Positions 1 to 63,693 of a stretch of DNA of 64,000 nt are shown here, in pieces. The notes beneath the pieces were generated by a model. It ran no database searches and was not told the DNA's origin. It was given only the letters and a program-made list of their open reading frames with translations. Both the position numbers and the translations under genes were made by a program. Position 1 is the first letter of the stretch, and each line of letters starts with the position of its first letter. The stretch comes from Psammoneis japonica (lineage: Eukaryota). The stretch is taken from assembly GCA_008632985.1 (NCBI GenBank), contig QPGO01000224.1, positions 1-64,000 on the forward strand, written 5' to 3'.

Positions 1-21
1 CTTGAAGAACCTGACAAAGGC

Positions 22-1805
22 TCACAACAATCGGCACACCACTGCACTTTTTGCCATGAGATGGGTTGCTGGCATCGCGTCGTAGAAAGCATGGGAGACT
101 TGACCCCGGCCGTGAGAAGCGTCTGGGGTGCTGCACACACTGTGTTCCATGCTCGCACAAAGAGGAAGGAAGGAAGGAACCTTGGAAATTGGGTGGGCTG
201 GCAGCGTCAAGCGAGCAAGACGAGGAAACTTTCTTGCCAACTGAAACTCTTCAACTTGTCCAGAACCCACGGAAAAAGCAAGCACCAATCAACCACGTTT
301 GTCTCAATCTGCCAAATGCACTCATTCCGGCTGTTCTTGTGGAGCTTCATCAAAGAGGCGGATTGGATTCATTTCAACAATTTTGCCATCAATCACTGCC
401 TTTTGCACTGGATCACACTCTGCCGTGAGTGACTTGGCATGGACACACAAGAGTGCATCCTCATTGGTGGGTTCCTTGACAATGGCCAAAGTCACCAAAG
501 AACCCAAGGCTTGCAATCCTTTCCACACTCCCGTGGCGGTTGAAATGGTCACATCCAACAGCCCATCATCGGGAATGACGACACAGCGCTGGGCCATGAC
601 GGATGTCGGAGGCACAACAGTGGCAACTGTGAGTGCTGTGGTTTGCAATTCTTGGGGTGGCTTGTCGTCAATGGACACACAGCAGGCAAAGGGTTCTTGT
701 TGAATGACTTGCTGTGCTCCACCTGATGCACAGGCTAGAGGTCCCCAACACATTTTTAAATTGACGCGATGCATTGTCCACCATGCTGGCTTCAAAGCAG
801 AGACCGGCAATGAGGGCCGTGGGAACTTCATTGCATGTGCGCTGAGTCAATCTTGCGCGTCTGTCCCAACAATGTGTTGTGAAAAGCGGCAAGGACACAC
901 CGGTTGGAATGCCCAGGGCAACACCAAAGGCGTTGGCGGCACCACAAGGAATGACACCCAGCGGGACACCCGCTCCCATTGTGGCTCCCGCAACCTGCTG
1001 GAGAAAAAGAGGGTGAGGCTAGAGACTGCTGCGAAGCTGTTGTTTTTGCAATGGAGTGGTGTAGACAACAAGAACAAAAAACAAAAAATGAAAAACTCAC
1101 CAGAAACGGTTCCATCTCCGCCCCAACGACAGCGATGCTGGACGCTTCATCTCCGTCCAAATGCTCTTGACTCGCCTTGATTGTGTTTGCAATTTCAAAA
1201 GCTTGATCTGAAGCTTCTCGATCGTTTTGCGCAATTGCGACATGAAGGATCATTTGGGGCTCGAGAGTGGCACGAATCAGATCCAGTTCTGCCTCGGCGT
1301 CGCCTTGATCGGCAATGGGATTGAAATGAGGTGAGCCGTTCGGGTCTCCACGGAGTGCCAGGTTTGCTGTTCCTTGTTGAGCGCAAAGGGAATTCGACTT
1401 GCGACACAAGCACGAAGAATGGCATGGACCGCATTGCTGTCACGCGCAAAATCGGAAAAGTGCACCACGCCTGAAATTTCTCCCGCAGCAGCCATGCCGG
1501 CAATCAAAATGTCAGCGACATCATCCGAGAGAGCTTTCATGACCATTTTGATCGAGTGGGCGCGAAAATCAAACTTGAGCAGCTTCGCCAAGGACTGCTG
1601 TGTCACAAAGGACTGCCCTCGTAAGGCGGAACCATTCTCGGCAATCCAACAGAGAAGCTTGTCCGCCTGTGGCGGATCTGCCAGCAGAGCAACCTTTTTG
1701 TTCTCTTCTTGTTGCGCAGCAGCATCGCCGCTGCAAGAAGCCCACAAAGGCTGGTGAAAGCTTGCACAAGGCATGGGCAACGAGATGAATCTCTCTTGAC
1801 AGCAT
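22..1805 (-). pseudogene. Degenerate MGS-like domain + YegS/diacylglycerol-kinase-family lipid kinase gene (intron-containing, frameshifted, TpA-depleted)
   Basis: Fragments across frames: DILIAGMAAAGEISGVVHFSD..ILRAC..IPFALN (MGS-like), HFNPIADQG, GGDGTVS directly followed by a gtgagt donor near 1098, and GVPLGVIPCGAANAFGVALGIP (DAGK motifs). Several frameshifts and almost no TA. Boundaries approximate. Confidence 0.8.
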
Positions 1806-3824: not shown

Positions 3825-6800
3825 CTCGCAGTCGAATGTCTCATCCCCGAATTGCCTACGACCCAAGACATCAATCGACGCAGCGAACATCGTTTCGGTG
3901 CCTTGTCTGAAAAACATTCAACAAGCAGACCCCCCAGAGACTGGGTTGCATCGACTTGAACTTCGACGTGGACTCACAGCAAGCACCCAGTTTGGTCACT
4001 TGGGCAATGCAGCCACAGGCTCGGAGCAGATTTGCACTGTGTCAAAGTGTTGAGAGAGTTGTGCATTGTGCAAAATGGAAGAAAAAATTGTGCAGACAAA
4101 AAACTCCGCAGTTTTGGATGTTTGCCCCATTTTTTTTAGCTGCGCTTGGCTTCATGGGCCAGCAGCGCAGCATCAGCATGCACACTTTGTTCAGCCAGCA
4201 GTGCAGCATCATGCACACTTTGTTTGGCTCTGCTTGCACAGGCATCAAAAAGCCATGGCGGCATGCTCTCATGGCTTTTTTGTTGTGCTTGCCAAGCCCA
4301 GAACAGCATCACCCCAGCTGCTCTCTGCCAAACTCTCAGCAAGTGAAAAGCAGCCTGCACTTTGCTGTTTGGCTTGTGAGCAATGCACTTTCTGCCTGTG
4401 ATGGTTTTGCTTGGTGATCGCACCCTGCGCCGTCATTGCTGCGGGCATGCTGCCTGTTGTTGCCGGCACAGTGTCAGGCAAGAAAAGTGCAGGGCCGCCA
4501 AGCAGCACTGCTGCACACACACAGCATTGCTCAAAGCTTGTGCCTCAATGCCTGGTTGTGGCCTGGCAGATGGGACAGCACCAGTGTGCTGATGGAGACA
4601 GCAGCAATGGGGGGGGGGGGGGGGCAGCATGGCAGAGCACAAAAAATGTCGCCCACGCTGGCTGCCATCATTGCTGCTTTTCCCAATTTTTTGTTGTTTT
4701 TTTCCTGGATCTGCTCATTTTGAAGTGCTGGCTGTTGTCCTCATTTTGCTTGGAGCAAGCGGTGGTGTGGCGTGGTGCTTTTTTGTTGGCGCTCTTTTCA
4801 CCTTGCTCCTGGTCACATCCTTTGTCACTGTCACTTTTTCTTCTGCCTTTCTCTTTGCTTCTGTGGCAGGCTTCTGATGCTGGGTTCTCTCTGAGAGAGT
4901 TTTTTTCCTGCTGCATTTGCTTTTGAATGGTGGTGGCTTTGTTTTCAAGCCTTTTAAATTGCAGGTTGGTGCTCCTGAAGAGTTTGACATCCAGGCAAAT
5001 CTTCTTGATGCTGTTCCTTCCACTCTGATGGCCCTTCTTGACCACAGCTGAGTTGCCTTTGTCTGCCAATGAACCTTGCCCAATTGTGGCCATTGCACTG
5101 TTGTCAATTGCCAGGAATGTCTCACTTGGAATGATCTGCTGGGTGGCTGGCAAGTGCAAATCTTGCCCTGTCATTTTACCCTCATCTCCTTTTTTTGATT
5201 TGTGCATTTTCTTCTGCCTTTCAGACAACACCACAGCATTGCCTTCATCTGCCAAGAGCAGCGCCATGCCCAGCTGCAGTCATTTTGCTGCTGTTGTCAA
5301 TGGCTTGTCTCTCTTGGAGCTGGGCTGTGTCAGCTGGTGAGCACAAACCCTTCCTGCTCTTGCTGCTTCTCCTCTTTTTTGATGCACACATTGTTCTGCC
5401 TTTTGCTTGCAATCTGTGTTTGGCTTGTGATGCATGTGCATTTGCTGCTTGCTTGTTGAACAAACATGAGGAGTTGTTGTTGTTGCCATTGTTGTTCCTG
5501 TGGTGTTGAGCTGACAGCATCAGAAAGCAGGAGAGCACAGCATTGCCTGGCCACAACTCTGTGGTTGCATCTTTTGCACAAAGATTGTTTGACTTGATCT
5601 CTGGCTGCTGTGCTCAATTTCAGGTTAACTGGGGGTTTGCCTGCTTTGTTGCTGCCCTGTTTCATGCCAGAATGCCACTGTGAAGAACATGTGACAAACA
5701 GTGTGCAGCAATGGCACTGCCAAAACAACAGCCTCACAATGGCAGTGACAATGAATGATGAAGTGGTCTGTCACATTTGAGGCTGGTGGACTCTCCCTTT
5801 TGCAAGAGTTTGAGCATCAAAGAGAGTGCCTCACAGCACAATGATCTGTGCTCTGAGAGTGCTCAACCCAGACATGAGATGCCCCTTTGAAGAGTTGCCA
5901 AGAGAAGCTTGGTCATTGATTTTTTGCACCCAACATGCTCTCTGGCTTGTTGGCAAGGCAGAAATTGGTTGTGGGTCAACAAAAGATGTGTCCCCTGGTG
6001 CATCATCTGTTGGTGACATGCTGTGGTTGTGACACATGATCTTGCGCTGCTTTTTTCTTGCATGTGCACAGCAGGGTGGCACTTGGCAGATGGCCAACAG
6101 GCTTTTGGATGTGACATGGTGCAGGGGGGGGGGGGGGGGGGGGGGGGGGGAATGGCCCAGCACATGTGCCGCGCACCATGCCAATGTCCAGGCAGAGTGC
6201 ACACATCAACACATTGTGAGGCACCCACATGGGAATGCCTGTCTTTTTCAAAATCACTCCATTGTGTCCAAAGGCCCAACAGTCAAAGCACTCACAGAGT
6301 GTGGAGCATTTCAGCTGCAACATGGAGTGCCAAATGACAAGGGCTTCCTTCCAACTCTTCTTCTGGCCCTCAAGTGGAGCTTGCACAATGCAAAACCACA
6401 AGGGTGTGTTCCTTCTTGGCCAGGAAGGGGGTGTGCTTCATGACATGCACAAAGATCTCTCTGTGCAAGCAGGAGCAAAAACACTGAAAATGTGTGCAGT
6501 GCCAAGTGGCGCAGAATCCTGTGAAACCAAATGAGTTTGTGCAAGATTGAGCAAGTGGCGCAAGTGGAAATGCACACACAAGAGCAGTGTGAGTGGAGAA
6601 ATGTGTGTGGTTGGTGTGCTGCTGGAGGTGAAAGGGATGGAACATCACCAAATGTGGGCACAATCAGCTGTTTTTCTTGCACAGTCATGTGAGCATGATG
6701 ATTGGTTGAAAATGCATGTTGTGCACAAATAAAAACTGGCAGAGTGCTGCCTGGTTCATTGTCCAAGTTGCACCTGCAACTCCAAAACAAAGCTGAAAAT

Positions 6801-8346
6801 CATGTCATTGATGGCGCAAGCTCTGACGCACCTCTTGGCAGAAGAGGAGCAGGTGTTCCAGGAGTGATGTGCTGTCTTTTGATGACAAGAAGATCAAGCA
6901 AAACACTCAGGGCCTCAAAATGAGCTGCCAAAAAGCATCAGTGATGCACATCTTTGTCCAAATTTGGCTTTGTGGGCTCATGTTGAGTTGCCATGAAGTC
7001 AGACAGAGGACAAGGCATTTGTCCAGCAAAGGTGTCAGCGGCAATCATGGCACATGGAGTTGGGTTTGCATTGTTGAGGAGCCATCAGCACAGAGTCTCA
7101 TTTGGCTGGAGTCAGTCTGTCATCAAATGAGCTTCAGACCTCAGAATGAGACTAGACACAAGTGAGCAAAAGCATGAACAACAACCTTTGGCTCAGCAAA
7201 GGTGGAAGCTCACTCATGTGTGCAAGCATTTTTGGAGAGAAGATGCAAAAACTGCACAAGCATCATTTTCTGGCTCACACACAAAAGGGGCTCCATTTTC
7301 AGTCAAGTGCTGGCACTTGGTTCAGTGTCATGTCTGACCCAGGGATGAAAAAAGTGATGAACAAGGATTTCATCAACATGACAGCCACAGGCCAGTGCTG
7401 CAGTGAGAGTTTGTCTGTTCTCAGCTTGAAAATGGATTTGAGCTTTCAGAAATGAGCAAAAAATGGCTGGCAGCAAGCACACAACTCTCCAGAGTCAAAG
7501 CTGCAAACATTGTGATGATGAAGCTTTGCACAAAAACTGTCATAGGATTTTGGCCTTTGCCCCATCTGCCTTCATCATCATTGGGCAATTTCTTGTTTGT
7601 CAGAAGAAGCAAACAACAGAACAACAGATGAATCAGTTGTTTGTTTTGGGCATTGACAGCACCTGGGATGAGGGTCAACATGATCTTTTTTTTTGCTGCA
7701 AGGATGGTGGAAAGCTGCTGCCTTTTGTTTGTGTCCAAAAGAGCTTTTTGAGAGGCCTCCAATGAGCTGGGGCATGGACAATGCAGGAAAAATTGAAGCC
7801 ACCACAGAAACTGGGTTTCCTCTCACCACACCAAAACAATCCAGAAGCTGGAGGTGCACAGTGTCAGCTCATTGAAGTTCATGAAAGGTGCAGCAAGCCA
7901 CATGGTGGTGGCACATTGTGGCCTGGGCAGGCAAAAAACTGCAAAACACTCCACAAAAAAGTGCTGAGTTTTGAAATGTTTTTCTCTGTGCTGTTGTTGT
8001 TTGCAGTGTGGTTTGTGACTGCTGCTTGGGTTGCTGCTCTCATTTCTGAACTCCTCTTGCATGTTCATGTGGTTTCAAATTATTTCACTTTTGACTGTGC
8101 CTTTTGTTGACTCATTGCACTTGGTGCCAAGTGATGCGCATCATCAGCAAGGGAGGGATCAGCAATGCCCTTGCCTTTTTTGTCCCACAAAGCACAAAAA
8201 AATTGCTCAGCAAAGCATCGGTTGTGACAACAGCATTCCAGATGTTTCTCATTTGCCTTCAGCAAAAAATGGCATGAGATCACATTTCCTCATAAGCTGG
8301 CATGCAAAGTCATGAGAAAAAGAGCCCCCGCCCATTGCCCTTGGCA

Positions 8347-9249
8347 TCAACTCTGTTTTTTCACTTGACTGCCCACAATGATTTGTGCACCCAAGAAGAT
8401 GTTGGTGCCTGTCATTGCAAACTTGAGCCATGAGTGTTGGTTCCACCCATGTTTGTAAATCAATTCATCACATTCTTTGGCCAGAGCAGTTGCAAGGGAA
8501 TTGTCTCTGTTTCCACCATCACTTGGAGCTCTCATCATTGATTGAATTTTGCCAAAATGAAGCACCAGCTCCTTTCTCTCTAAAGAAGTTGTGTTTGTTT
8601 TGCAGCTGCAGAGTGTTGCTGCCCTTTTCAAGAGCAACCACTTCACATTGCTCATTGCAGACAAGTTTGCATTGGGCATCTTGAATTTGTGATGCTCCCA
8701 ACCAAGACTGTGAGCTGCTTTTTGCACAGTGGTCAAAGTCTTTGCTGCCCCAGGCGTTGCAAACATCAGAGCACAGGTTTTCACCTCTGAAGCCAATGAC
8801 TTTGTTCTTTGTTCTCTTCCCTCCTGCTGGAAGAACAATCACAACCCATGGATTGCCTCATCTTTGCACAGCTCTGGCACAGCTGCATTAAAAGGGTTGT
8901 TGCAAAATGGGCTTTGGATGCATTTAGTGAAATTTAACTCCTCCTCAGCCTGGACAGAGATGCAGTCATTTCCAATGGGACTTGGCGTTGGAGTGCGGTG
9001 AGGCAACAACTGAAACATGACCCCAAAGCTGGGGTCACCTTCAGCACAATTTGCTGCATTTTTGAGGTTGTTGCTCATTTTTTCCCAACCCACTGGCATT
9101 TTTGCTGTGACAAACGCAGAGCCAATGGTCAGTTCAAGGCCTGTTGCTTCCCAGAACTCACCCACAGTCAATGGAAACAGCTCATCGTAGAACTTAAAAA
9201 CATCTGTGACTGAAAAATTGTGGTTTCTTGCTGCTGCTGCTGCTTGCAC
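8347..9249 (-). pseudogene. Degenerate P-loop NTPase remnant (Crinkler-associated NTPase-like)
   Basis: LMFATPGAAKTLT (decayed Walker A), LVLHFGKIQ (decayed Walker B, hhhhDE) and downstream MTGTN. Frameshifted; probably extends further toward about 6900. Confidence 0.5.
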
Positions 9250-10322
9250 AATTCTTGAAAGGTGTTGAGTGCTTCTGTTTGATTGAAGGAATGATCATTG
9301 AACTCATCTGTGCTGCAGCCAGCAACTTCAAGACACACACAACATTCCTTGTCAATTCAATCCCAAGGAGTTGTCATGGTTGTTGATGTCACTTCACCTT
9401 GCTCTGAGCTCTGCTGTGCCTGCCAGAGCAGCAGCAGCAGTGCCTGCTGCCTGATGGCTGGAGGTGGCAGGAACTGACAAAAATGCAAAATGTGCACAGA
9501 AATCCTCATGCAGACAGACCGCGTCACTGCAGTTTTGATTTTCCTTGCCAGCTTGGCTTGCATGTGGTGACACCCAGCTTTTTGCCATCTGCATGTGTTG
9601 CACCCACTGTCAGCATCAAGAAGTGCACCTGGCAGCAATCTTGCAAAGCTTTGAAACCCACATCTTGTTTGCAACAGACTCGTTGATCCAGCCACCACAC
9701 TTCTGGTGTGGCAGGTTGACTGTGAAACAACATCTTCCTTGGCCCTGATGCTCTGCAGAAAATGCAAGCTCTTGCTGCATCCCATGCTGTTGCACAGCCC
9801 CTTGTTGAGCATGAGAAGTGAAAAGTGTGTGTTTGCAGTGCGCGGGTGTTCTCACATGCAGGTGATGATCTGCACACAAAGAATGCCACAGTCAGTGTGT
9901 GGCTGCCAATCAGGGATGCCATTTCCTCAGATCCTGCAGGCCAGGAGAGGGGCACTGTCTTGCAGATCCTGCCAGCGGAGAAGTTGGTGATTGGCAATGC
10001 GATCCTGAATGTGAAGCATGGGTTGGTCACAATGAAAATGCTGGCAACAGGAATCAACAGCAGGCACCCATGCTCAGCATGAAGCTCAAGTCATTCTCAT
10101 GATGTGCCCCAAATGGAGCTCATCTGTGGAAAGCTTTTGCGCATGTTGAGCACACTGACAAAAACAGCTTGGAGGTGCTCCCACAATGTGGAAATGGAGA
10201 AATTCTTGTGCACATGCAGTGCAATGCAGGTGGGCATGTGCTGGCTCCTCTTCTGTCAAGAAGCAACTCTGGTGGGCACACAGCAAAGAGGTTTGGAGTC
10301 CAGGCTGGTGAGTTGCATTGCT

Positions 10323-10483
10323 GTGTTCAACAGACAGAGGGCACTGACAATTTTCTAAAAAACTTGCAAAACATCAAATGAACACATCACATTTGTGAGT
10401 GACGTTGACGTGTTCAACAGACAGAGGGTGCTGACCATTTTCTAAAAAACTTGCAAAACATCAAATGAACATGACACATTTGT
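10323..10483. repeat. Tandem duplication, 87-bp period
   Basis: gtgttcaacagacagaggg..ttttctaaaaaacttgcaaaacatcaaatgaaca..cacatttgt at 10323 and 10410. Copies differ by CA vs TG (gggCAct / gggTGct). Confidence 0.9.
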
Positions 10484-12183
10484 TTTTAAAAGTTCTTGCA
10501 TCAAAAATGTTTTGGCAATGATGCAATGCGCCAATTTTGACCACTCAAATTCTCTGGTCATTTTGTCATGACCTGCAAATTGTGCATGCTAAAGCTGGCG
10601 CCATGCTGCCACCATGAACTCACCCATTTGTGCACCAACAGCCATCAACAAGACAAGCCAACAAGGCTGTGCTCCATGTGATGACATGGCTCAAATTTTT
10701 GGCTGCTCTGTTTGTTGTGTCTCATAGATTGCCTTCAACTGATGACATTTTGATGCCTCTTTTGTTGTCTTCCTTAGATTGCAAAGCAGGATTTTTTGCA
10801 ACACTTTTGGCCAAGTCAACTTGTCAATGCTGGGTGCAACCAACAATGTGTGTTTTTATGGTGCACTTGCAGGATTTTTGCAGTGTGTCATCTGCACTCC
10901 AAGTTGTTGTGGACAGTGGTGGTTTTGGGTTGTGTCGGCATGTCAAATTTTGGAGCTGTCAGAAGAGCAGTTCTGCACTCAGTTTTGAGGGTGCGCGACA
11001 GTTGAGAAGCTGCTGGACAAGTCTGACAGGCACAACTTTTGCAAAACAGAACAAAGACATCAATGACATCCAAGTGTTGCAGCCACTTCACTTCCTTGTG
11101 AGGTGTGGAGCCAGTCATTTGAGTGTCAAAATGTTCTCAACATTTCATTGTTGCCTCTGCTTCTGCTGCACAATCATGCACCAGAACACATCCGTGCTGG
11201 TTTGTCATGAGTGAGAGCCTTGTCTGGGTTCTGGATTGCACTTCTCTGGGGCATTCTTTCTCCCTTCAGCTACTTTCTGAGTCAGCTCAGCAGTGGCGCA
11301 AAACATGTGGTTTTGTTCTCACTTGATGGTGACAGGCGCAATGGGCCAACAATGCATCTTTGAGATGAGCTGCACATGGAACAAATTGCGTGCTGACAAA
11401 GATTGCCTTGTTGCACTTTGGTCTTTCCACTTCTCTGTTAAAATGTGTTGGCTGTTGACCCTCATCAGATTTGCAAGCACTCGAGGGGTGCTAAAATGGA
11501 TTTCAAAATCTGGTTGATTTGCCGTTGACTGCTGCGACTGACTCTTCTCAAAACCTCATCGCTCATCTCCATCATTGTGTTTGAAATGGGAGAAATCAAC
11601 AACATTGAAGCCTCTTTTTTATGCCACCTTGTTTGGCTTGTCTTTGTCTCATCCTTTTTATTGTTGGAATGGACAAGTCTCCCGTGGTCCACATTCCATC
11701 TTACACATCCTGTCTTGTCAATGATGGAGACATAATTTCAACTGTCGATTGTCTGCTGCATCATGCCACATTGTTGGACACGCCCAGACGGGAACCACCA
11801 AAAGCACAGCCAAGGCTCAAATAGGCACCCTCCGCTACGGTATGTCCTTGCCGGCGGAAGAATTGTTTTCCCAAACAGTCAATCAAACCAACAAGGCCGC
11901 AAAAATCGAGGAGCTGTATGAGTTGGAGATTCAAAACGCTAAGTCTGCCCTATTCACGAGTATGGATCCTGTTGCTTCTCGTAAGGATCACGTCAGCCAC
12001 ACTTCTCTTTCCCTACACTCTATCTATTAGGGAATACTCTCTAGTAATAAAATTTTGTTTGACGCCATTTACTGGTTTCGCTTTGAATACAAAAAGATTA
12101 ATTAGTCCTGATCAATCTTGACTGGTAAAAACGCAACGCACTTTACCGTCACCTTTGCAACATCGCGACCATTAGACTTTATC

Positions 12184-29122: not shown

Positions 29123-30590
29123 CTCAGTTTGTTGGTTTCACCCATTTGGGGATTCCCCAAAATGGCAAGGGCAAGGGGGAACTGCCTTGCCCTTTTGGAG
29201 AGCACCCGGGAAATGAGGACAATTTGACGGGAAGGAATGGCTGAAAGGGGTCAGGGGAAGGAACAAAAAATGAGTGCAGGGGAAGGAACAAAAAATGAGT
29301 GCAGTGCGGCAGTTCCTGTCTCATTTCAATTAGAATCTTTTGAAAATGACCCGCGACACAAAACGCACAAAACAGCCAAGGGCGCCTGCAGAATCTGCAC
29401 ATGTTTGCACCGAAACTGTGATGTTCACACAATTTGTGCAAAAATGGACTTGACTCCTGTCGGGTCAAGCCCATTTTTGCAAGTGTGTGGAAGAAAAATG
29501 GGCTTGATCAGAAAGGAGTAAAGTGCATTTTTTGCAAAGTCAAAATTCACTGAGGACAGACAGACAGACTTTTCTTGGCACTGCTCTGCACAATTTCTAC
29601 GTGATGACTCTGCAGCACGAAAGATTGCTGTTGACATGGGCGTGTGCACTTTTTGTCACATTGTCCAGCCAGCCAGCCATGGTCTGCTGCCAATGACCAT
29701 GACGGATGCATCGACAAATCGACACAAAGCGGCCCCTTGTGGCAGAGCAAGGGAAGAATGAATTTTGCCATTGGACCACACATGTCAACATTGCTCGCGC
29801 GCGGGCTCCATTTTTGCCTTGGCCTTTGCTCCAGAGCCGTTGTGGTTTGCATCATTTGTGACCACATGACACAAGAAGAAAAAACGACACACTGCATTCT
29901 GCACATGAGACAGGTCAAAGGGAAGAACAAACATTGTCAATCAATCCACCACATTTTTGTCAACCATGTGTGGCTCCACTTTTGCCTTGTCCTTCACACT
30001 GGATGCCTCATGGCTTGCCTTTTTGAATGCATGGCAAAAGAGTGATCTGAATGACCCCCTTCATTCTGCACACAAGAGGTGTGAATTGGAAGAATGATTG
30101 TGGCTGTTCAATCCGCCATGTTGTCATTGTCAGCTGTGCGCATGGTTCTGCTTTTGCCTTGGCCTTCACTGTGTGCCTTCTGGCTTGCATTTGTGGCTGC
30201 ATGACAAAAGAAAAACTGACGACTGATGACTCAATTGTGCTGGCATTTTGCACATGTGCAACCACATTTCACACTGTGTTTCATGTTGCAGATCCTGTTC
30301 AATTGACATTGTCGAATGCATCGAACAGTGTCATGATTGATGAACAACAGCTGTCACAAATGGGGCATGAACGCGGCATGGCGTGTTGCCCATTTTTGTT
30401 GTGGCTGGTCAATTGTCTGGCTCCTGTGTCCTGGCACGTAGAAGGTGCAGAAATGTGTGGGAGGGAAGCGCGTGGGGAATTCCCAATGTACAATTTTTTG
30501 TTCATCTGTGAAGTGTGCATGTGACGAAGCGCAGCTCATGGCGACTCCCCAGGAAATCATGCTTTCCATGGAAAATTGTGGCGACAAGCC
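29123..30590 (+). mobile_element. Dispersed repeat family B, copy 1 (extra segment about 29300-29670; 3' end truncated)
   Basis: Colinear with 48371-49542: ttggtttcacccatttggg.ttccccaaaatgg, gacacaaagcggccccttgtggcagagca, gaaggtgcagaaatgtgtg. Confidence 0.85.
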
Positions 30591-30745: not shown

Positions 30746-31130
30746 ACGGTTCCAGTCCTAGGTGGGACTTTTTGTGACATTTGCCCCGTAGAATTCTACG
30801 TGCGAGCTCTGTAGTTCGTACTCTGGTTAATGGATATATTTATCTTCGACATAAAAAACGGCCAAGCTTGTAGTACATCTATCCCTGTTCGTACTCGAAG
30901 TTTTGGATAATGCGCCTGCCCTACGCCGTTCTTAAGACACTCGAGAATGGCGTAGAAGAAAAAAATATTAAAAGTTGTTCAATGGATAGCCTGATAATTG
31001 TGCTATAAAATCATACAAAATTTCGCCAAAATCACGTAGAAATGTACGTCCGTGACATACGACGCGATTCAAAAAACCATCGATGTCACAGTTCAGTAGT
31101 GCGAGGTCCCACCTAGACCTGGAACGCGTC
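30746..31130 (+). mobile_element. MITE family A, copy 1 (TpA intact)
   Basis: TIRs gttccagtcctaggtgggac / gtcccacctagacctggaac; colinear with 35497-35884. Left end altered and no TSD found. Confidence 0.9.
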
Positions 31131-34100
31131 GGAAACTGCCCCATTGCATTTGGTGTGCTCGCATGTTGCACAATTTGTGCGGGTCACTTCCTTGTTCAAT
31201 GCTCGTCATTCATCAATTTTTGTGCTTTGTGCATGCTCAATGGTCAAATCATCCCCTCATTTTCCCCCCTTTTCTGTGATGACCATGAAAAGATTGCCAA
31301 AAAGAGCAGATGATGGACAAATCCTTGTTGTTGTTGAGGCAGACTGCAGCTGTTGCAGGAATTGAACAGAAAGGCACCTTGCAACCCCTCTTCAAAATGC
31401 TGAGTCATCGACCAGTCTACGTTGTTTTCATTTGTGGGTGCAGCTCCATTTTCAGCTGACTCTCCAATTTTCGTTTGTGTCTCTGAGCAACATCAGCTCA
31501 ACTCCTGTGTTGTTGCACTCACCGTCTCCATGTTCAGGACTGTCCAAGTCCATTGGGAGAGATGATGCTGCAATTGACCTTCTGCCTGCATCAAAAAAGC
31601 AATCTGAAATCTTTGTCGGACACGTGCAAGAAGCACAGAGTCAACAAGCAGGACACTTGAGAAGGCCAAGAGCAAGCAGACACGTGCAGAGGCAACATTG
31701 ACAAACATGGACAAAAAAGACAAAAGAAATGTGCACAAAAGGAAAAGGATGTTAACCTCGTGTCCAACTCAGATCATTCTTCTCCAATGACATTTTCTTT
31801 GGGGAATGACATTTTCTTTGGAGAACTTGAATCTGACAGCTCCGGCCAGCTGTGGGGTGGAGAAATGCTTTTTCCACAAAAAGGGTGACAATCCCCGGTT
31901 TGGTCATTTGGTCATGCAGCAACAGCTAAACTTCTTTTGTTGCAAGCAGAGAAAAAGCTTGGGATCTTGCAGGAATGGTTGAAAAGGAGCACTTGTTGTC
32001 CACTCTGTTTGGTCCAGTTCAGTCTGTGCATCCAAGCCAGAACAATGCACCCGAGATGAACAAAGTTCAAATGAGAGAGTCCCAACAGGAAATGATCAAG
32101 GAAGGCTGCTGTGCCAAAGGAATGGCTGCCGTGTGCAGAGCAAAAATGGCTCCTCAACTGTCGCTGCTCCTCAGCTGCACTCCCAACAAATGCAGACATG
32201 CAAAGGGGCATTTGCGCAAAATTGTCACTGCGTCAAGCGACAGCGAATCCTTTCTTCATAATTTTGGGCATGAGATGAACAAAACCATGGAACACACCCA
32301 GGACACAAGTTGCCTTGTGTGGGACTTTCAAGTGTTGGTTGACAGCATGGGAAAACTTTGGCACATTGATGCCAACTGGTGATGTGTTTTCATCCCAGGT
32401 GAGAAACTTATGGACACATCACAAGGTTTTCTGCGTGTTTCTACATGAGACGTACATTTAGCACCAAAAATCTTAGTAAAAAACGAGCTCCATGACAGCA
32501 AAAACATGTTTTTCCATGTCTCGAACCACAAACCACAATTCGCGCAAACCGAAAATGGCACCATGCCGTCGCCATGAACTCGTCCATTCTTGCACCAACG
32601 GATGTTGTGACTGAGAAGGTGAGAATGCCGAGACAGGTCAATGAGACAATGCTCAATGCGATGATGTGGTTGAAAATTTGATCTTTGTTTTTTGTTGTGC
32701 CTTGTGGATGGCCTTTTGACTCATGATGTTTTTGATGCCTCTTTCTCTCTTCCTCAGCTTGCGAAGTGGGATTCTCATCAACGCGCTGCTCCATCTGCTT
32801 GACACCGGATGCTGACAATGAAGAATGTTTCTATGACACGTTGCTGTGATTCTCACAATGCATCGTCCGCACTTTGAGTCGTTGTGGACAACGCTTTTGG
32901 GTCGCGCGACAACATCAGATTTCGCTGCCGACAAGAGAATCGTCATGTGTTCGGTTTTGAGGGTGTGTGAGGATAAAGAATCTCAGATGCAAGTGTGACA
33001 GTTTCATCATTGTAAAGTGGAACAATGCCATTAGCGACATCTCAGTGTTGCAGCCATTTTATTTTATTCCAAGATAGAACTGGTCATTTTGAGTGGTGAA
33101 ATTTTGTCAATGTTTCATCTTTAACTCCACTTGGGCATGTCAAATCACATGATGACTGGACACACATTGAACTTTGACGCCACCATTTCAATCCTGTTGT
33201 TTTATTCACTCAAGCATCCCACACAGGTTGACAAATCAGTCGATCTTTGAAATGGCCGATCGCGCAAAAAAATCACGTGCGAAGTCAGTTCCCCCGATTT
33301 TTCTTGTGCAAATGACAGAGTTAGAACGCCGTTCTTTTTTGGCATGAGCTCTTTGTACAATGAACAATGCGTACATTCTTTCAAAGCAGTCAGATTCGGT
33401 GAAAGAAACAGTGGAACAGTCTCTCAAATGCACCAGAACAACAACAACGAGCAGACAGCTGTCAGTTTCACTCCAAAAAATGCCGCTTTCGAGACAGCGC
33501 TTTTCTTGCACGCACCCTTCAACCAATGAGAATAACGGCTGGCTTTTCAAAATAAACATGTCTGTGGAAAGAAGAAACGAAAAATTGGGGGAAAGTCCAG
33601 TCAGATTTGCTCGCACAAAAAGCACGGCGACGGAAAAGGGACAGACGAAACGTCTCACCTCCGCATGCGCGTTTCTCACCTGGGATGAAAACACATCTGG
33701 TGTTTTGAATGGAGTCCCAATGACAAAAGAAATTTTGTCAGAATCAACAAGCGGTGACACCAAGAAGAGCGTTGTGATCAGGCAAAGAAAACATTTCTCA
33801 GTTGTGTCAAAATGGCTGAGCAGATTGTGGCAAACAATGCTGCAACAAAGACTTGGCGCAGCATTCTTCCTGGTCACGTGCAGCTGTTGGAAGAGTCCCT
33901 TGTTGCACATGCAATTTTCTCCCAGAAGTGACATGGAGGCCACCACTGCACCAGAAATGTCATTGAGGCAGCCACTGCATGTGCCCAAACCACAAAGCAG
34001 CTGGTCAAAACGAGCAGATGTTGTCATCTGTCACACACAGTTTGAAGCCCCCTGGCTTTCTTCACAGCCCGTTAACCTCCACAGTGCAAGTTCTGTTTTA

Positions 34101-35496: not shown

Positions 35497-35884
35497 GACG
35501 GGTTCCAGCCCCAGGTGGGACTTTTTGTGACATTTGCCCCGTAGAATTCTACGTGCGAGCTCTGCAGTTCGCTCTCTGGTCAATGGACACATTTGTCTTC
35601 GACATAAAACAAACAGCCAAGTTTGCAGCACACACATCTCTGTTCGTACTCAAAGTTTTGGACAATGCGCCTGTCCCACGCCATTCTTAAGACACTCGAG
35701 AATGGCGTAGAAGAAAAAAACATTAAAAGTTGTTGAATGGATCGCCTGATGATTGCACTATAAAATGATGCAAAATTTGCCAAAATCACGTAGAAATGTA
35801 CGTGCGCGACATGCGATGCGATTCAAAAAACCATCGATGTCACAGTTCAGCAGTGCGAGGTCCCACCTAGACCTGGAACGCATT
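35497..35884 (+). mobile_element. MITE family A, copy 2; 4-bp TSD GCCT
   Basis: gcct|gacgggttccag...ctggaacgcatt|gcct. Confidence 0.92.
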
Positions 35885-36386
35885 GCCTTCCCATTGTTGG
35901 ACAGCGGTCCCATTCTTCAGAATCCACTTGGAAGGGCAGACACATGAGACCAGCTTCACAAAACGGCTCAAACACAAACGCATTGAGGAAGCTTTGCTCC
36001 ATGGTTTCGTTCATTGGCAACATCTTGCTGATGACGGTTGTTGCATGCAATGGCACAGTCATTGGCAGTGGAAGCCCGGTCATGTCGAACTTCTCTTTGA
36101 AAAGATTCGTGAAATCTTCCCACTTTTCAATGGTCGGCAGATGGCATTGCTTGCTTCGTTGTTCGTTGAACTTGCTTTGTTGACTTGTTGTTGTGCCATC
36201 AGCATTGCACATTGGTGGCAAAATGGTTGATGATGCCATCCCTTCTTGATCATGACATTGGAACGCACGCGCATCATGCTGCACAAAAACTTCGTGGCAC
36301 TTTCCAACAAATTCTCTACGGGCTCGGTTGAAGTCTTTTCTTGCCCTCATCTCCTCCGGTGTCAGAGAGCATTCTTTTTGTTTGAC

Positions 36387-36662
36387 TGATGGAAATTGAA
36401 GGCAAATGGCAAGAATTCAAACAACAACTCCTTGCTGCTGTCTAAATGGCAGATGAGTCTCCGCTCAGAGACCGTTGCAGGAGCCAAAAGACTTGCAAGT
36501 TGGCATGGTCCGGCTGCTGTCATTGTTCTTGTGAGCCTTGTGGCTCGAAAGCAAACTGCATCGCGCGCGAACACGCGGAACTAAAGCACACAAAACTGTG
36601 CGCGGCAAACTAAACAGCGCGCAACATTTCGCGCGCACTTGAATCCTGTTCAAATCCTGTCA
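36387..36662 (-). repeat. 3' LTR (276 bp)
   Basis: Aligns without gaps to 43218-43493. Confidence 0.97.
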
Positions 36663-39600
36663 CTCCCCAGTTTGCTTGAGGAGTCACAGAAACAGATTCG
36701 ACTTTGGATGAAATGAAGTTCCAGAACATGAGGGGGCGGAGAAGGTCCCAGATTTGGGAGTGACCACAATGCTTGCTGAGGATGTCAGCAGGGTTGCGGG
36801 AGCCTTCGATGAAGTGGAGCTCAAGGCAACCAGAGGCAATTGCCTCACGCACACGGTGGAATGACAGTGCGGTGTGTCGCTTGTGTAACTTGGAGTGCGG
36901 GATGGTGGCACCATCTACAACCGACTTGTTGTCACCGAACATGCAACTGACATTGCGGATCGGGACGCCAAGGTGGCGCAGGGTGATGCGCAGGTCAACA
37001 ATCTGCTCGACACAAGTCCTTGCGGCAACAAATTCAGACCCGCAGGTCGCAGTCTCCACGGTGGCTTGCTTCTTAGAGAACCAATCAGCCGGGAATTTGT
37101 TGAGGAAGTGGAGCATTCCCATGACAGAGCGTCCGGTGAGCATGCAATGGTGCAGGTTTGCATCGACATAGTGGGTGGCAGTGACGAACTTGCCAAGGGG
37201 CGGTGGAGCGTCCTTCGGGATCATCTCTTCTGCTTCGCCGCACACGGAATGCATCCATTCACAGGCCGGAGCAGGGAGATCCGAACAGTCGGGCTCTTCC
37301 GTGCGAACGCAGAGAGCACCGTGTCGCATCTTGGAGAGGTGCCCACAGACGCGTTTGGCACGATCCAAGTGGCCTTGATGGGGCACAGCTCGGAAGCTAG
37401 AGAGTGACATGACGGCTGTGGCAATGTCAATTCGACCAAGGGACACTGCCCATTGGAGTGAACCAACAAGAGACTGGAACTTGTGAATGCCATCGGGTCC
37501 CAGCAGTTCGGAAGTGTCCAGTTCGGGGTGGTCACCCTTCTCCAGAGGTGACAGGGAGTTGGTGGCAGGTTTCTCCCCAAACAGTCGGGCACAGCTGTCG
37601 ACCATGCGCTCGATGTACTTGCACGGAGACAGGCACAAGGTTCCGTCGGGATCCCGGGAAAAGTCGCAACCCAGATGGAACTCAATGGGTCCCGTGCCCT
37701 TGAGCTTGAACTTGCACTTTTCCGTGAGAGCATCGACAAAAGATTGAGGGTCCTTCATGGCAATGGCGAGGTCATCCACATAAACGGCAATGCATTCACA
37801 GTGGTCGCTGTTCCTGCGCATCCAAATGTCGGGTTCGGCGCGGCAGGGGAAGAAGCCTTCAGCTCGCAGGCAGTCGGCAAAGCGCTCGTGCCAGCGGAGA
37901 CCAGAGCTGCGCAGTCCATGCAGGGCCTTGTGGATGACAAGGATGTGTCCTTCGAGTTTGCCAAATTCGGGTCCGGCCACAATGTAAAGCTTGTCCTTGG
38001 TGGTGGCTTCAAGGCAGGCATTGCCAATGTCGGTGGCCCATGTCTCCAACTCGTTGAGTTCGGCCAGGAAAATCATCAGCCGAAGGCCACGGAGGGAGAC
38101 TGCTCCGGAGTGGACACTGTCGACAGGTACGTCTGTGAGGTGCCCGTCGGCTACGAGTCGTGCCTTGTGGCGACCGTCGTGTTTCACGTCGCACACTGGG
38201 TGCACTCGGATCTTCTTGTGTCCCGCAGGAGGAGTGGAAGACTCGAAGGGCCCGCAGTCATGGAAGACTTCGCATTCGTCGAGTTGGTCCATCTCGAGAT
38301 TAGTTGCATCTCCCCATTTGCGGTTGCCGTTGCGTTCGTCTGGTGACATGGCGTGTTTGCAGTTCCGGGGAACTTCGCACCTGCACTTGCAGCGAGGTGC
38401 AGTGCGGAAGGAGCGAAGCTTGGCTTGGTTGGCCATGCGAAACAGCTTCTTTTGGCGCCTCGCGATGGTGCGGAACCGCTTCCAGCCATCCGTGTCGAGG
38501 AGTCCGTTCTCTCGTGCATGGATGGCGCAGGTGACGGGGTCGTCCTTGGCGATGATGGCAAGAGGCTCGGACGTGATCTCCCCACTTTCCCATTCAAGCA
38601 TGATGTTGTAGCTTGAGCCTTTCCAGGTTGGGTCGTGAGGCTTCAGAGGTCCTTCGTGTGACACGATGCGTCGAAATTTCCAAGTGGCAGTGTCTTCGTC
38701 TTCTTGCTCAATGTGATTCATGATGTCATTGTGGGCAAGGACTTCCTCGCATTCGTCGTTGTTGACAGAGCAGACGAACTTAGTGAGCTTGGGGTTGCTG
38801 TTCACTTTCCATTCGTGGTCTTCGACGGCCTTGACGATGCGAGCTCTGTGGCGTTGTCCGTCCTCTTGTGGCTGCATGAGGAAGGTACGTCCAATGATGT
38901 CTTGCAGATCGAAAACTGGCATCTTGGGTGTCCTGATCTCCCCATCAGGAGAATCGACGGGGTTGTCGTCATGGCGAGATTTGATGATGGGTTCAGGTGG
39001 CTCCCCATCAGGAGGATCAAGACGCAGGTTTCGAACGGCAGGATCGGTGGTAGCGGAGCGGACGTTGGACCGGCAGAGGATCTTCTGAGTCTCGTCAGAG
39101 AGAATCTTGAAGGTCATCTGGTGGCCGACGTGCTCAGCAATGCCAACGAAGCGTCCACACAACTCACGGGATTCGGACGGCCAATCGGAGTCATCGAGGT
39201 GGAAGCACACGGGTTCCCACCAGTGAAAGCGAAGCAATGGGCTGATGTCCGGGGTGGAGCCAGTGAGAGTCTCGAGGGGCGTGCGCCAGTGGAGACGTGG
39301 GGACGCTGTGTGGTTGAGTGTGAAGCACACATGCATGAGCGCCAGCAGCCATGTGTGGGCGGGCGAACCAAAACGATCCATGACAGTGTTCGCCATGCGC
39401 TTCACGGTCTGGTGTCGACGCTCGGCAAAATTTTGGTGTTGCTGGTGAGGCTCACTTTGCCAGCTGGAGATGAAGAGGGCCCACAGGATCCCAAGCACTT
39501 TGTTGCTGATCTCAACTTGAGCACGGTCGCCAATGAGTTTGGATGGGGCACCACGCTCACGGATCTGATCCTCGAGTGTGTTGACAAACTCTTTGTCCGT

Positions 39601-43203: not shown

Positions 43204-43217
43204 CAAGACTGTTAATC
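43204..43217 (-). promoter_or_regulatory. Putative primer-binding site complementary to the anticodon arm of tRNA-Asn(GUU)
   Basis: Sense strand GATTAACAGTCTTG abuts the 5' LTR. Its complement GA-CTGTTAA-TC is an Asn anticodon stem-loop. No TGG-type PBS is present. Confidence 0.6.
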
Positions 43218-43493
43218 TGACAGAAATTGAAGGCAAATGGCAAGAATTCAAACAACAACTCCTTGCTGCTGTCTAAACAGCAGATGAGTCTCCGCTCAGA
43301 GACCGTTGCAGGAGCCGAAAGACGTGCAAGTCGGCATGATCGGGCTGCTGTTGTCATTCTTGTGAGCCTTGTGGCTCGAAAGCAAACTACATCGTGCGCG
43401 AACGCACGGAACTAAAGCACACAAAACTGTGCGTGGCAAACTAAACAGCGTGCGACATTTTGCGCGCACCCAAATCCTGTTCAAATCCTGTCA
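43218..43493 (-). repeat. 5' LTR (276 bp)
   Basis: Aligns to 36387-36662. Confidence 0.97.
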
Positions 43494-63690: not shown

Positions 63691-63693
63691 AAT

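What the first reader, a model, noticed from the sequence alone, without database searches (positions are those of the whole stretch)
3830..11800. Two clocks: TA is lost first, CG later, both draining into TG/CA
Seen: three states coexist. MITE copy 1 has both TA and CG; the copia lacks TA but is CG-rich; old relics such as this domain lack both. Established: diatom TEs carry CG methylation, and 5mC decays to TG/CA. Inference: TpA mutation is much faster than 5mC deamination, so it is an active process, possibly guided by the same silencing marks.
Basis: partly seen in the sequence, partly recalled or inferred. Interest (0 to 1): 0.75.

Follow-up and report, generated by a model that had tools for sequence, protein, structure and literature searches.

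The report
Fast TA loss, slower CG loss
In this diatom-like DNA, transposon-derived stretches lose nearly all their TA steps to TG/CA soon after insertion and lose their CG steps several-fold more slowly, so each repeat carries two mutational timers; the fast TA process matches one reported so far only in a 2026 preprint on an unrelated alga.

Summary
The domain 3859-11620 has 26 TA (531 expected) and 65 CG (438 expected). The copia at 36387-43493 is TA-poor but CG-rich, and MITE copy 1 keeps both. Of 128 non-overlapping 500-nt windows, 0 combine TA o/e >=0.4 with CG o/e <0.5.

Direction and speed were checked with polarity:
- Copia ORF: 33 of 42 conserved Tyr columns read Cys/His, but only 3 of 60 conserved Arg columns read Cys/Trp/His.
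- Copia LTR pair: 5 TG<->CA swaps, 9 one-sided CG losses, 4 other differences in 276 nt.
- Four MITE copies: TA loss 4, 67, 83, 93% against CG loss 15, 20, 35, 40%.

TA is therefore lost about 4-30 times faster per site than CG. CG decay runs concurrently, not strictly afterwards.

Among 80 related copia loci from metagenomes, the two signatures occur separately in both directions, which favours two processes.

The link to methylation or shared silencing marks could not be tested. A TA-intact MITE and a TA-intact copia leader inside TA-free DNA argue against simple domain-wide action.

This scan has already noted the TpA hypermutation on many other pieces of this genome. The only printed precedent I found is Mettrop et al. 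2026 (Bigelowiella natans).

The parts
3859..11620 (.). TA- and CG-depleted domain, the finding itself. Origin unidentified; partly repeat-related.
   Evidence: TA 26 of 531 expected; CG 65 of 438 expected; TG/CA o/e 1.78/1.95. No Pfam family found.
3859..4660 (.). Left-edge sub-block: TA-free but only partly CG-depleted.
   Evidence: TA 1 (o/e 0.02), CG 22 (o/e 0.38), G+C 53.5%.
10651..11148 (+). Relic copy inside the domain, homologous to 32631-33118.
   Evidence: About 66% identity over 506 nt. CG is present only in the 32.6-kb copy at 15 sites and only in this copy at 2. There are 22 TG<->CA swaps.
32631..33118 (+). Sister relic copy that is TA-poor but still CG-rich.
   Evidence: Bins 32370-33703 have TA o/e 0.19-0.20 and CG o/e 0.89-0.90.
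30748..31140 (+). MITE copy 1: TA and CG intact, lying inside TA-free DNA.
   Evidence: Keeps 23 of 24 TA-type and 17 of 20 CG-type sites. Terminal inverted repeats seen in the alignments.
35501..35893 (+). MITE copy 2: TA loss half done.
   Evidence: Keeps 8 of 24 TA and 16 of 20 CG sites. Against copy 1: 16 TA->TG/CA and 0 in the reverse direction; 6 CG->TG/CA and 1 in the reverse direction.
51496..51900 (+). MITE copy 3: TA mostly lost, CG partly lost.
   Evidence: Keeps 4 of 24 TA and 13 of 20 CG sites. At 7 sites copies 2 and 3 show opposite outcomes (TG against CA) where copy 1 has TA.
43625..44024 (-). MITE copy 4: only the termini are alignable.
   Evidence: At classifiable sites, TA kept at 1 of 15 and CG kept at 9 of 15. 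The middle of the alignment is unreliable.
36387..43493 (-). Copia-type LTR retrotransposon, TA-erased but CG-rich.
   Evidence: RVT_2 domain. 1828-codon open frame at 36610-42096. Tyr 0.5%, Cys 3.7%, His 5.2%, against homolog means of 3.85, 0.89 and 3.56%.
36387..36662 (-). 3' LTR of the copia (276 nt), preceded by the target-site duplication TTGAC at 36382-36386.
   Evidence: 24 differing bases against the other LTR. These are 5 TG<->CA swaps, 9 one-sided CG sites, 1 TA/TG site and 4 others.
43218..43493 (-). 5' LTR of the copia, followed by TTGAC at 43494-43498.
   Evidence: Contigs joining 36381 to 43494 with 5 shared letters exist in run X1.
42390..43209 (-). Copia leader that escaped TA erasure.
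   Evidence: TA 25 (o/e 0.57), CG o/e 0.94. Its read-set depth is as high as the ORF's (91,539 in bin 42375-43041).
29691..30505 (+). Relic copy homologous to 48597-49407; both TA-free and CG-intermediate.
   Evidence: 77% identity. CG/CG 1, one-sided CG 21, TG<->CA swaps 24, other columns 15% divergent.
48597..49407 (+). Partner of the relic at 29691-30505.
1..1800 (.). TA-poor, CG-intermediate segment.
   Evidence: TA o/e 0.06, CG o/e 0.70.
46201..52900 (.). TA-poor, CG-poor segment.
   Evidence: TA o/e 0.05, CG o/e 0.30.
56801..58800 (.). TA- and CG-depleted segment.
   Evidence: TA o/e 0.05, CG o/e 0.13.
61901..63700 (.). TA- and CG-depleted segment.
   Evidence: TA o/e 0.02, CG o/e 0.10.

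Best explanation
Two separate mutational processes act on inserted or repeated DNA of this diatom-like genome, at different per-site speeds.

Process 1 turns TpA into TpG or CpA, an A:T>G:C transition on either strand. It acts on the DNA after insertion. It prefers TAY and spares YTAR such as CTAAA. It removes 80-95% of TA while ordinary sites diverge by about 1%. By inference it is most likely enzymatic adenine deamination of DNA, as proposed for Bigelowiella natans.

Process 2 is the ordinary CG>TG/CA decay expected of methylated CpG. It runs concurrently, about 4-30 times slower per site than process 1.

Because of the speed difference, an element passes through three states: TA+CG+, then TA-CG+, then TA-CG-.

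Shown here: the direction of both changes, their timing after insertion, the relative extents, and that the two signatures can be separated. Inferred: the enzymes, the role of methylation, and that CG level tracks age.
For: States and L-shape:
- 18 change-point segments fall into the three states; none is CG-poor with TA intact.
- 0 of 128 500-nt windows have TA o/e >=0.4 with CG o/e <0.5.

Direction:
- 42 alignment columns have Tyr in >=80% of 60 homologs. The window's copia reads Cys 21, His 12, Phe 5 and Tyr 4 there. Conserved Arg is kept at 55 of 60 columns (Trp 1, His 1, Cys 1, Thr 1, Ser 1).
- 7 MITE sites have TA in copy 1 and opposite outcomes (TG against CA) in copies 2 and 3.

After insertion:
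- The copia LTRs were identical at integration. They now differ by 5 TG<->CA swaps, 9 one-sided CG sites (4 lost in one LTR, 5 in the other), 1 TA/TG site and only 4 other bases in 276 nt.

Relative speed:
- MITE copies 1-4 have TA loss 1/24, 16/24, 20/24 and 14/15, against CG loss 3/20, 4/20, 7/20 and 6/15.
- Ratios of log-retention are about 4-5 for the MITE, 13 for the LTRs and 30 for the ORF.

Separability, among 80 related copia loci from metagenomes plus this copy:
- 7 copies have Tyr>Cys/His at 29-89% of conserved Tyr columns, with Arg loss at only 9 of 221 columns pooled.
- 7 other loci have Arg>Cys/Trp/His/Gln/stop at 14-62% of columns, with Tyr>Cys/His at 0-1 columns.

Age proxy:
- Among 27 TA-poor 667-nt bins, CG o/e rises with the summed depth of >=80%-similar contigs in the read set (Spearman 0.75, p=7e-6). 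Without the copia bins the correlation is 0.65 (n=18, p=0.003).
- Residual TA o/e falls together with CG o/e within TA-poor DNA (rho 0.57, n=74 windows; rho 0.75, n=10 segments).

Precedent:
- B. natans mutation-accumulation lines show 210 of 211 and 20 of 20 new mutations as A>G/T>C, which the authors say all fall on TpA. The rate is about 6e-7 against a baseline of 3.5e-10 (abstract and passages).
Against: - The rate ratio is not constant: about 4-5 in the MITE series, 13 in the LTRs and 30 in the ORF.
- CG loss differs within one element: 9 of 44 LTR site-copies against 3 of 60 Arg columns (p=0.03). 'Clock' is therefore loose, and targeting or episodic activity matters.
- MITE copy 1 shows 3 of 20 CG-type sites changed against 1 of 24 TA-type sites. 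The numbers are small and the polarity is ambiguous.
- No methylation data were overlaid, so the 5mC step rests on textbook knowledge and on passages of Hoguin et al. 2023 about diatom TE methylation.
- The age proxy is partly circular. Independent TA and CG hits themselves lower similarity, and the bins are not independent.
- CG o/e in TA-erased DNA is biased downward by the G+C gain. By my own arithmetic, not a call, the copia's 0.86 corresponds to about 1.0 on ancestral base composition.
- The whole genome was not held, so the within-genome test rests on a single 64-kb window.
- An earlier unchecked note on another piece of this genome (e1-7620467) reports 20 of 26 TA and 20 of 28 CG lost in one gene copy. 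That is near-proportional loss, unless TA had already reached its floor of resistant contexts.
Confidence: 0.62

Rival explanations
1. One process does both. A single repeat-directed mutator, for example a deaminase complex able to deaminate A at TpA and C or 5mC at CpG, rewrites both self-complementary pyrimidine-purine steps, and is simply more efficient on TA.
For: - Both losses occur in the same blocks, and their boundaries fall within a few hundred bases of each other.
- Both end in TG/CA.
- The MITE series gives a roughly steady ratio of 4-5.
- Residual TA and CG fall together within TA-poor DNA.
- The B. natans preprint cites ADAT2 enzymes reported to deaminate both A and C in DNA (passage).
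Against: - In related copia loci the two signatures occur separately in both directions. Seven copies are TA-only with 9 of 221 Arg columns changed. Seven loci are CG-only with 0-1 Tyr columns changed.
- The ratio ranges from 4 to 30 between and within elements.
- In B. natans, 230 of 231 new mutations in the hypermutable regions are A>G/T>C, which the authors place on TpA, and the preprint does not contain the word CpG.
- CpG decay needs no special enzyme in a genome that methylates its repeats.
Confidence: 0.13
2. The states are classes, not stages. Whether a repeat keeps its CG depends on whether that family or region is methylated, or was hit by a past episode, and not on how long it has been there. 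The three states then do not form a time series.
For: - CG loss is uneven within one element: LTRs about 20% against ORF Arg columns 5%.
- The copia leader and MITE copy 1 escape TA erasure inside TA-free DNA.
- B. natans hypermutation was seen only in a subset of lines, which suggests on/off regulation (abstract).
- No independent date exists for the CG-poor relics.
Against: - Four copies of one MITE family form a monotonic series in both TA and CG loss.
- CG o/e tracks the number of still-similar copies in the read set.
- The structurally youngest units keep the most CG: a copia with intact target-site duplication, paired LTRs and an open frame, and an intact MITE.
- The units without any recognisable structure or coding signal keep the least.
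Confidence: 0.17
3. No mutation history at all. The blocks are natively TA- and CG-poor sequence (composition or selection), or they are an assembly artefact.
For: No ancestor sequence is available for most of 3859-11620. No protein family was found there.
Against: - Polarity is shown wherever an outgroup exists: Tyr>Cys/His, MITE copies, LTR swaps, and the relic pair with 15 against 2 one-sided CG sites.
- Logan contigs of run X1 cover the stretch. One 4618-nt contig matches 27701-29161 with only 3 differing letters.
- TA 26 against 531 expected is far beyond chance.
Confidence: 0.03

Closest known systems
TpA-specific hypermutation of integrated viral DNA in Bigelowiella natans (Mettrop et al., bioRxiv 10.64898/2026.01.13.699255; abstract and passages read)
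   Same: - Only TpA is hit, giving TpG or CpA depending on the strand.
- It is confined to foreign or mobile DNA.
- The rate lies orders of magnitude above background.
- TpA-depleted, CpA+TpG-enriched clusters remain as the long-term footprint.
- The authors' TpA-poor coding sequences are enriched for reverse-transcriptase and DDE domains.
   Different: - The lineage here is diatom-like; the best named relatives of a host gene are diatom proteins.
- The targets seen here are a copia, a MITE and unidentified relics, not giant-virus or virophage inserts.
- Erasure is near saturation (o/e 0.02-0.13).
- It is accompanied by CpG decay, which the preprint does not mention (0 occurrences of 'CpG').
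- No mutation-accumulation measurement exists here.
Decay of methylated CpG by 5-methylcytosine deamination in silenced repeats (textbook). Diatom TE methylation as in Hoguin et al. 2023, PMC9998398 (passages read).
   Same: - CG>TG/CA transitions accumulate in repeats but not in neighbouring genes.
- The rate in the LTR pair is roughly 30 times that of other sites, with a wide interval.
- The same decay occurs without TA loss in related copia loci.
   Different: - Methylation of these particular sequences was not observed here.
- Surviving CG is enriched for a flanking C (CGC/GCG): 208 of 528 flanks against 666 of 2852 in gene segments. I cannot explain this.
Repeat-induced point mutation (RIP) of Neurospora and other ascomycetes (recalled knowledge; named in passages of PMC9998398 and of the preprint)
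   Same: It is a repeat- or invader-directed, dinucleotide-specific transition hypermutation of DNA that kills mobile elements.
   Different: - RIP is C>T, mainly at CpA, and creates TpA. Here TpA is destroyed and G+C rises.
- Dependence on duplication is not evident. A leader as repeated as the rest of the copia is spared.
- A link to the sexual cycle is unknown here.
Editing of retroelements by ADAR (A>I on RNA) or APOBEC (C>U on cDNA) in animals (recalled knowledge)
   Same: A>G or G>A hypermutated retroelement copies with a sequence-context preference.
   Different: - The changes here arise after integration, because the two LTRs differ.
- They also arise in a DNA transposon, the MITE.
- They occur on both strands without long strand runs.
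- RNA or cDNA editing therefore cannot account for them.

Membership tests
TpA-specific A:T>G:C hypermutation of foreign DNA (B. natans type) | Mutations fall on TpA and give TpG or CpA. | tested here: met
   - 33 of 42 conserved Tyr columns read Cys/His.
- MITE copy 2 has 16 TA>TG/CA against copy 1 and 0 in the reverse direction.
- 7 MITE sites show discordant outcomes.
TpA-specific A:T>G:C hypermutation of foreign DNA (B. natans type) | Confined to inserted or mobile DNA; host genes are spared. | tested here: met
   Gene segments have TA o/e 0.47-0.95, against 0.00-0.13 in 10 depleted segments. This covers one 64-kb window only.
TpA-specific A:T>G:C hypermutation of foreign DNA (B. natans type) | Rate orders of magnitude above the background rate. 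| tested here: met
   Indirect. In the LTR pair, TA outside CTAAA is about 95% hit (1 one-sided site plus 5 discordant swaps), against 4 of 256 other columns differing. No per-generation rate is available.
TpA-specific A:T>G:C hypermutation of foreign DNA (B. natans type) | New mutations arise in culture, and only in some lines (regulated). | not testable with these tools
   Needs mutation-accumulation lines. The only hint is TG>CA dinucleotide differences between the window and single-copy contigs of run X1 at 28992-3, 44867-8 and 45360-1.
TpA-specific A:T>G:C hypermutation of foreign DNA (B. natans type) | An ADAT2/TadA-like DNA adenine deaminase is the agent. This is a hypothesis in the preprint too. 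| not testable with these tools
   No genome is held for this window.
Methylated-CpG decay (5mC deamination) | CG>TG/CA transitions in the affected DNA. | tested here: met
   - 9 one-sided CG sites between the LTRs.
- 15 against 2 one-sided CG sites in the relic pair 10651/32631.
- 21 one-sided CG sites in the pair 29691/48597.
Methylated-CpG decay (5mC deamination) | The affected CpGs are methylated. | not testable with these tools
   No methylation data were laid on the window. The literature covers other diatoms only.
Methylated-CpG decay (5mC deamination) | Occurs independently of the TA process. | tested here: met
   Seven related copia loci have Arg>Cys/Trp/His/Gln/stop at 14-62% of conserved Arg columns with 0-1 Tyr columns changed. 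An example is L018, with 20 of 32 Arg and 1 of 27 Tyr columns changed. The organisms are unknown.
Repeat-induced point mutation (RIP) | C>T at CpA, giving a gain of TpA and a loss of G+C. | tested here: not met
   TpA is lost, and G+C rises to 57.6% in the copia ORF.
Repeat-induced point mutation (RIP) | Acts on duplicated sequence because it is duplicated. | tested here: inconclusive
   Mutated units are repeated in the read set. So are the spared copia leader (depth 91,539) and the spared MITE copy 1.

The most novel reading that the evidence does not exclude
The two losses are mechanistically coupled. A heterochromatin-guided DNA deaminase system reads the same marks that maintain CG methylation on repeats and rewrites both self-complementary pyrimidine-purine steps, TpA fast and (5m)CpG more slowly. 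Diatoms would then possess a RIP-like genome defence of opposite chemistry, whose progress can be read as a two-hand clock on every repeat.
Probability: 0.13. Interest if true: 0.8.

Novelty: new member of a known kind. Interest (0 to 1): 0.5.

Why it matters
- It gives each repeat two internal timers: a fast one (TA) and a slower one (CG). This could order insertions in diatom genomes where LTR dating is distorted by hypermutation. Here 20 of 24 differing LTR bases lie in TA- or CG-derived steps.
- It bounds the speed of the TA process. It is nearly complete while other sites diverge by about 1% and while only about 5-20% of CG is lost.
- It argues that the TA process is distinct from methyl-CpG decay.
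- It carries a practical warning. TA>TG/CA can never create a stop codon and removes TAA and TAG (reasoning from the genetic code). A dead element therefore keeps a long open frame, here 1828 codons with 33 of 42 conserved Tyr replaced, and would be annotated as intact.
- It also raises G+C and so depresses CG o/e without any CG loss.

Tried and rejected
- Whole genome: not held, so the per-copy plot could only be made for this window and for metagenome relatives.
- Identity of the relics. Pfam on 144 ORFs of >=90 aa from all depleted blocks gave 0 hits above cut-off. Read-through of the three minus-strand frames of 3901-11700 gave 0 families. The plus-strand frames were not scanned read-through. 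tblastn with 12 copia homologs found no further copia fragment outside 36300-43600 (13 hits, all inside).
- Protection of TA by a neighbouring CG (CGTA/TACG): only 1.36-fold enriched among survivors, so dropped.
- Strand-coordinated runs of TA>TG against TA>CA along the ORF: no clustering in the window's copia (19 Cys, 11 His, 18 runs, p=0.92) or in 6 hypermutated loci.
- Constant rate ratio: not found; it ranges from 4 to 30.
- Read laying on 27701-47700. The joint 36381>43494 (2 contigs, 5 shared letters) shows an uninterrupted version of the flanks. I could not tell an allele from a paralogous copy, because a second such contig differs from the window's flank at 7 of 27 letters.
- Methylation overlay from bisulfite runs was considered and not attempted. 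Converted reads would fall under the 80% likeness floor of read laying.
- Literature searches gave no paper on TpA hypermutation or on TA-before-CG ordering in diatoms.

Full report
WHAT IS THERE

The window as a whole has TA o/e 0.28, CG o/e 0.65 and TG/CA o/e 1.5. A change-point segmentation on TA and CG frequencies gives 18 segments.
- Eight are gene-like, with TA o/e 0.47-0.95 and CG o/e 0.88-1.64. They hold, for example, a DEAH helicase and a fatty-acid desaturase.
- Ten have TA o/e 0.00-0.13. Within these ten, CG o/e ranges continuously from 0.10 to 0.87.

The finding's domain, delimited by the last and first TA, is 3859-11620. It has 26 TA against 531 expected and 65 CG against 438 expected, with 959 TG and 844 CA.

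In 128 non-overlapping 500-nt windows the counts are:
- 35 TA-high/CG-high and 5 TA-high/CG-mid.
- 21 TA-low/CG-high, 15 TA-low/CG-mid and 38 TA-low/CG-low.
- 14 TA-intermediate, of which 12 are CG-high.
- None with TA o/e >=0.4 and CG o/e <0.5.

The best named relatives of the desaturase are diatom proteins (Thalassiosira profunda 56%, Amphora coffeaeformis 52% identity), so 'diatom-like' is reasonable.

DIRECTION OF CHANGE

The copia (RVT_2 domain) has an open frame of 1828 codons. Its Tyr is 0.5%, Cys 3.7% and His 5.2%. Sixty full-length homologs average 3.85, 0.89 and 3.56%.
- At the 42 alignment columns where >=80% of the 60 homologs have Tyr, the window reads Cys 21, His 12, Phe 5 and Tyr 4.
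- At 60 conserved Arg columns it keeps Arg at 55 (Trp 1, His 1, Cys 1, Thr 1, Ser 1).
- The other residue classes are 83-100% kept.
- 111 of its about 118 Arg codons are CGN, so Arg columns do report on CG.

TAY>TGY/CAY has therefore happened at about 80% of conserved Tyr codons, and CGN>TGN/CAN at about 5% of conserved Arg codons (Fisher p=3e-15).

TA>TG/CA cannot create a stop codon, by the genetic code. The open frame is thus no sign of life.

TIMING AFTER INSERTION

The LTRs are 36387-36662 and 43218-43493, flanked by a perfect TTGAC duplication. They differ at 24 bases:
- 5 TG<->CA dinucleotide swaps.
- 9 sites with CG in one LTR and TG or CA in the other (4 lost in one LTR, 5 in the other).
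- 1 TA/TG site.
- 4 other bases (2 transitions, 2 transversions).

Three TA are kept in both LTRs, all in CTAAA. With about 21% CG loss per LTR, fewer than one discordant swap is expected from CG. Most swaps therefore mark TA sites hit independently in both LTRs. That puts TA loss at non-CTAAA sites near 95% (my estimate).

Background divergence is 4 of 256 columns (1.6% pairwise, 95% interval 0.4-4.0%). Per site, TA is thus lost some hundreds of times faster than ordinary sites change, and CG some tens of times faster. The latter is the range usual for methylated CpG (recalled knowledge).

A SERIES WITHIN ONE FAMILY

The MITE with terminal inverted repeats has four copies.

| Copy | TA-type sites lost | CG-type sites lost |
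|---|---|---|
| 1 | 1 of 24 | 3 of 20 |
| 2 | 16 of 24 | 4 of 20 |
| 3 | 20 of 24 | 7 of 20 |
| 4 | 14 of 15 | 6 of 15 |

For copy 4 only the termini are alignable. Seven sites show TA in copy 1 and opposite outcomes in copies 2 and 3, which fixes TA as the ancestral state.

The ratio of log-retentions is 4-5 for the MITE copies, 13 for the LTRs and 30 for the ORF. TA is thus always ahead. The ratio is about one order of magnitude and is not constant. CG decay has clearly started before TA erasure is finished.

RELICS

Two relic pairs show CG>TG/CA directly.
- 10651-11148, inside the finding, against 32631-33118: CG only in the 32.6-kb copy at 15 sites, only in the other at 2, and 22 TG<->CA swaps.
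- 29691-30505 against 48597-49407: 1 shared CG, 21 one-sided CG sites and 24 swaps.

What the relics once were I could not establish.

IS CG LEVEL A MATTER OF AGE?

Three indirect lines say yes.
- Structure. The CG-rich units are the ones with intact structure: the target-site duplication, LTR pair and open frame of the copia, and the intact MITE. The CG-poor ones have none.
- Read depth. When the contigs of the one DNA run that holds this DNA were laid on 27701-47700 at >=80% likeness, summed depth was 59,000-156,000 over the copia, about 10,000-14,000 over the MITE, and near 75-300 over the CG-poorest bins. Among 27 TA-poor bins, CG o/e correlates with depth (rho 0.75, p=7e-6). Without the copia bins rho is 0.65 (n=18, p=0.003).
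- Residual TA. Within TA-poor DNA the residual TA falls with CG (rho 0.57, n=74 windows), as expected if resistant TA contexts erode slowly over the same time.

Caveats apply. Summed contig depth is not copy number, the bins are not independent, and independent TA/CG hits themselves reduce similarity.

ONE PROCESS OR TWO?

I fetched 80 loci encoding relatives of the copia from metagenome contigs. For each I scored the conserved Tyr and Arg columns.
- Seven copies, including the window's, are TA-hypermutated, with Tyr>Cys/His at 7/24 to 17/19 columns. Pooled, their Arg columns changed to Cys/Trp/His/Gln/stop at only 9 of 221.
- Seven other loci show the reverse: Arg changed at 4/29 to 20/32 columns, with Tyr>Cys/His at 0-1 columns.
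- An eighth locus, L038, shows a little of both (3/20 and 3/16).
- Other conserved residues are kept at 85-92% in hypermutated copies, within the 75-98% range of the remaining loci.

The two signatures are therefore separable in both directions. These organisms are unknown, so this does not test the order within this genome. It does show that 'CG-depleted, TA-intact' copia copies are common elsewhere.

COMPARISON WITH WHAT IS KNOWN

My searches found one description of a TpA-only A:T>G:C hypermutation: Mettrop et al., bioRxiv 2026 (abstract and passages read).
- It was measured in B. natans mutation-accumulation lines at about 6e-7 per site per generation, against a baseline of 3.5e-10.
- It was seen in integrated giant-virus and virophage DNA, and only in some lines.
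- An ADAT2-like deaminase was proposed as the agent.
- The text has no occurrence of 'CpG' or 'diatom'.

Hoguin et al. 2023 (PMC9998398, passages read) report that loss of DNMT5a removes DNA methylation and de-represses young TEs in P. tricornutum. They also report that diatom DNMT4 is related to the fungal RIP enzyme RID. That supports the 'established' part of the finding for diatoms in general, not for this DNA.

RIP itself is excluded as a family, because TpA is destroyed here rather than made. RNA- or cDNA-level editing is excluded by the LTR differences and by the MITE.

Earlier notes of this scan had already described the TpA hypermutation on many pieces of this genome, including this copia (e1-7623145) and this MITE (e1-7623147). 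They also gave me the lead to the preprint. What this report adds is the relative kinetics and the separability of the two signatures.

WHAT SPEAKS AGAINST A SIMPLE DOMAIN-WIDE, MARK-GUIDED PICTURE

- MITE copy 1 is TA-intact although both flanks are TA-free.
- The copia's own leader (42390-43209) keeps 25 TA (o/e 0.57), many in susceptible TAY contexts (my reading of the sequence). The ORF and both LTRs are erased, and the leader is as abundant in the read set as the ORF.

I have no explanation for the leader.

VERDICT

- The order and the 'active' nature of TA loss hold.
- 'Later' should read 'slower and concurrent'.
- The methylation link and shared guidance are untested.

Novelty: a further lineage and further targets for a kind of hypermutation known from one preprint, plus an ordinary CpG decay. 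Interest is moderate.

Noticed in passing
window 42390-43209: The leader between the 5' LTR and the ORF of the copia keeps TA at a gene-like level (25 TA, o/e 0.57; CG o/e 0.94). The ORF (TA o/e 0.13) and both LTRs are erased. Its depth in the read set equals that of the ORF, so it is not a unique insert. This is unexplained.
   Followed up: partly
all TA-depleted segments of the window: Surviving TA are context-biased. The base after TA, both strands pooled, is A 146, G 110, C 73 and T 33 of 362, against C 565, T 550, A 469 and G 414 in gene segments. TAY is therefore erased best, and YTAR such as CTAAA, TTAA and CTAG resists.
   Followed up: partly
CG-depleted segments of the window: Surviving CG are enriched for a flanking C (CGC/GCG): 208 of 528 flanks against 666 of 2852 in gene segments.
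   Followed up: no
window 28992-28993, 44867-44868, 45360-45361: Low-depth contigs of run X1 (one contig at the first place, two at each of the others) read CA where the window has TG. Such dinucleotide swaps are expected if two haplotypes or close copies were hit independently at one former TA or CG. This hints at recent activity.
   Followed up: no
window 36381/43494: Two contigs of run X1 join the copia's flanks directly, with 5 shared letters that match the TTGAC duplication. This is an empty-site version. Whether it is allelic or paralogous was not resolved.
   Followed up: partly
window 4609-4624, 6124-6150, 52173-52189: G homopolymers of 16, 27 and 17 bases lie inside TA/CG-depleted relics.
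   Followed up: no
window 35501-35893 and 43625-44024: MITE copies 2 (+) and 4 (-) lie in inverted orientation about 490 and 130 nt from the two ends of the copia. They might be the ends of a larger DNA element into which the copia inserted.
   Followed up: no
window 2779-3018: A tandem array of a 24-nt unit (7 overlapping 96-nt copies at 24-nt spacing) lies inside overlapping long ORFs on both strands in a TA-normal segment. No Pfam family was found.
   Followed up: no
L018 (also L039, L026, L008, L012): These related copia loci from metagenomes have heavy CG decay at Arg codons, with Tyr codons intact. In L018, 20 of 32 conserved Arg columns read Cys/Trp/His/Gln/stop. This is CpG decay without TA erasure in other, unknown organisms.
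   Followed up: partly
window 36610-42096 (minus strand): The 1828-codon frame stays open although 33 of 42 conserved Tyr are replaced. TA>TG/CA cannot create stop codons and removes TAA/TAG. This also produces many long spurious ORFs in other frames of TA-free DNA.
   Followed up: yes
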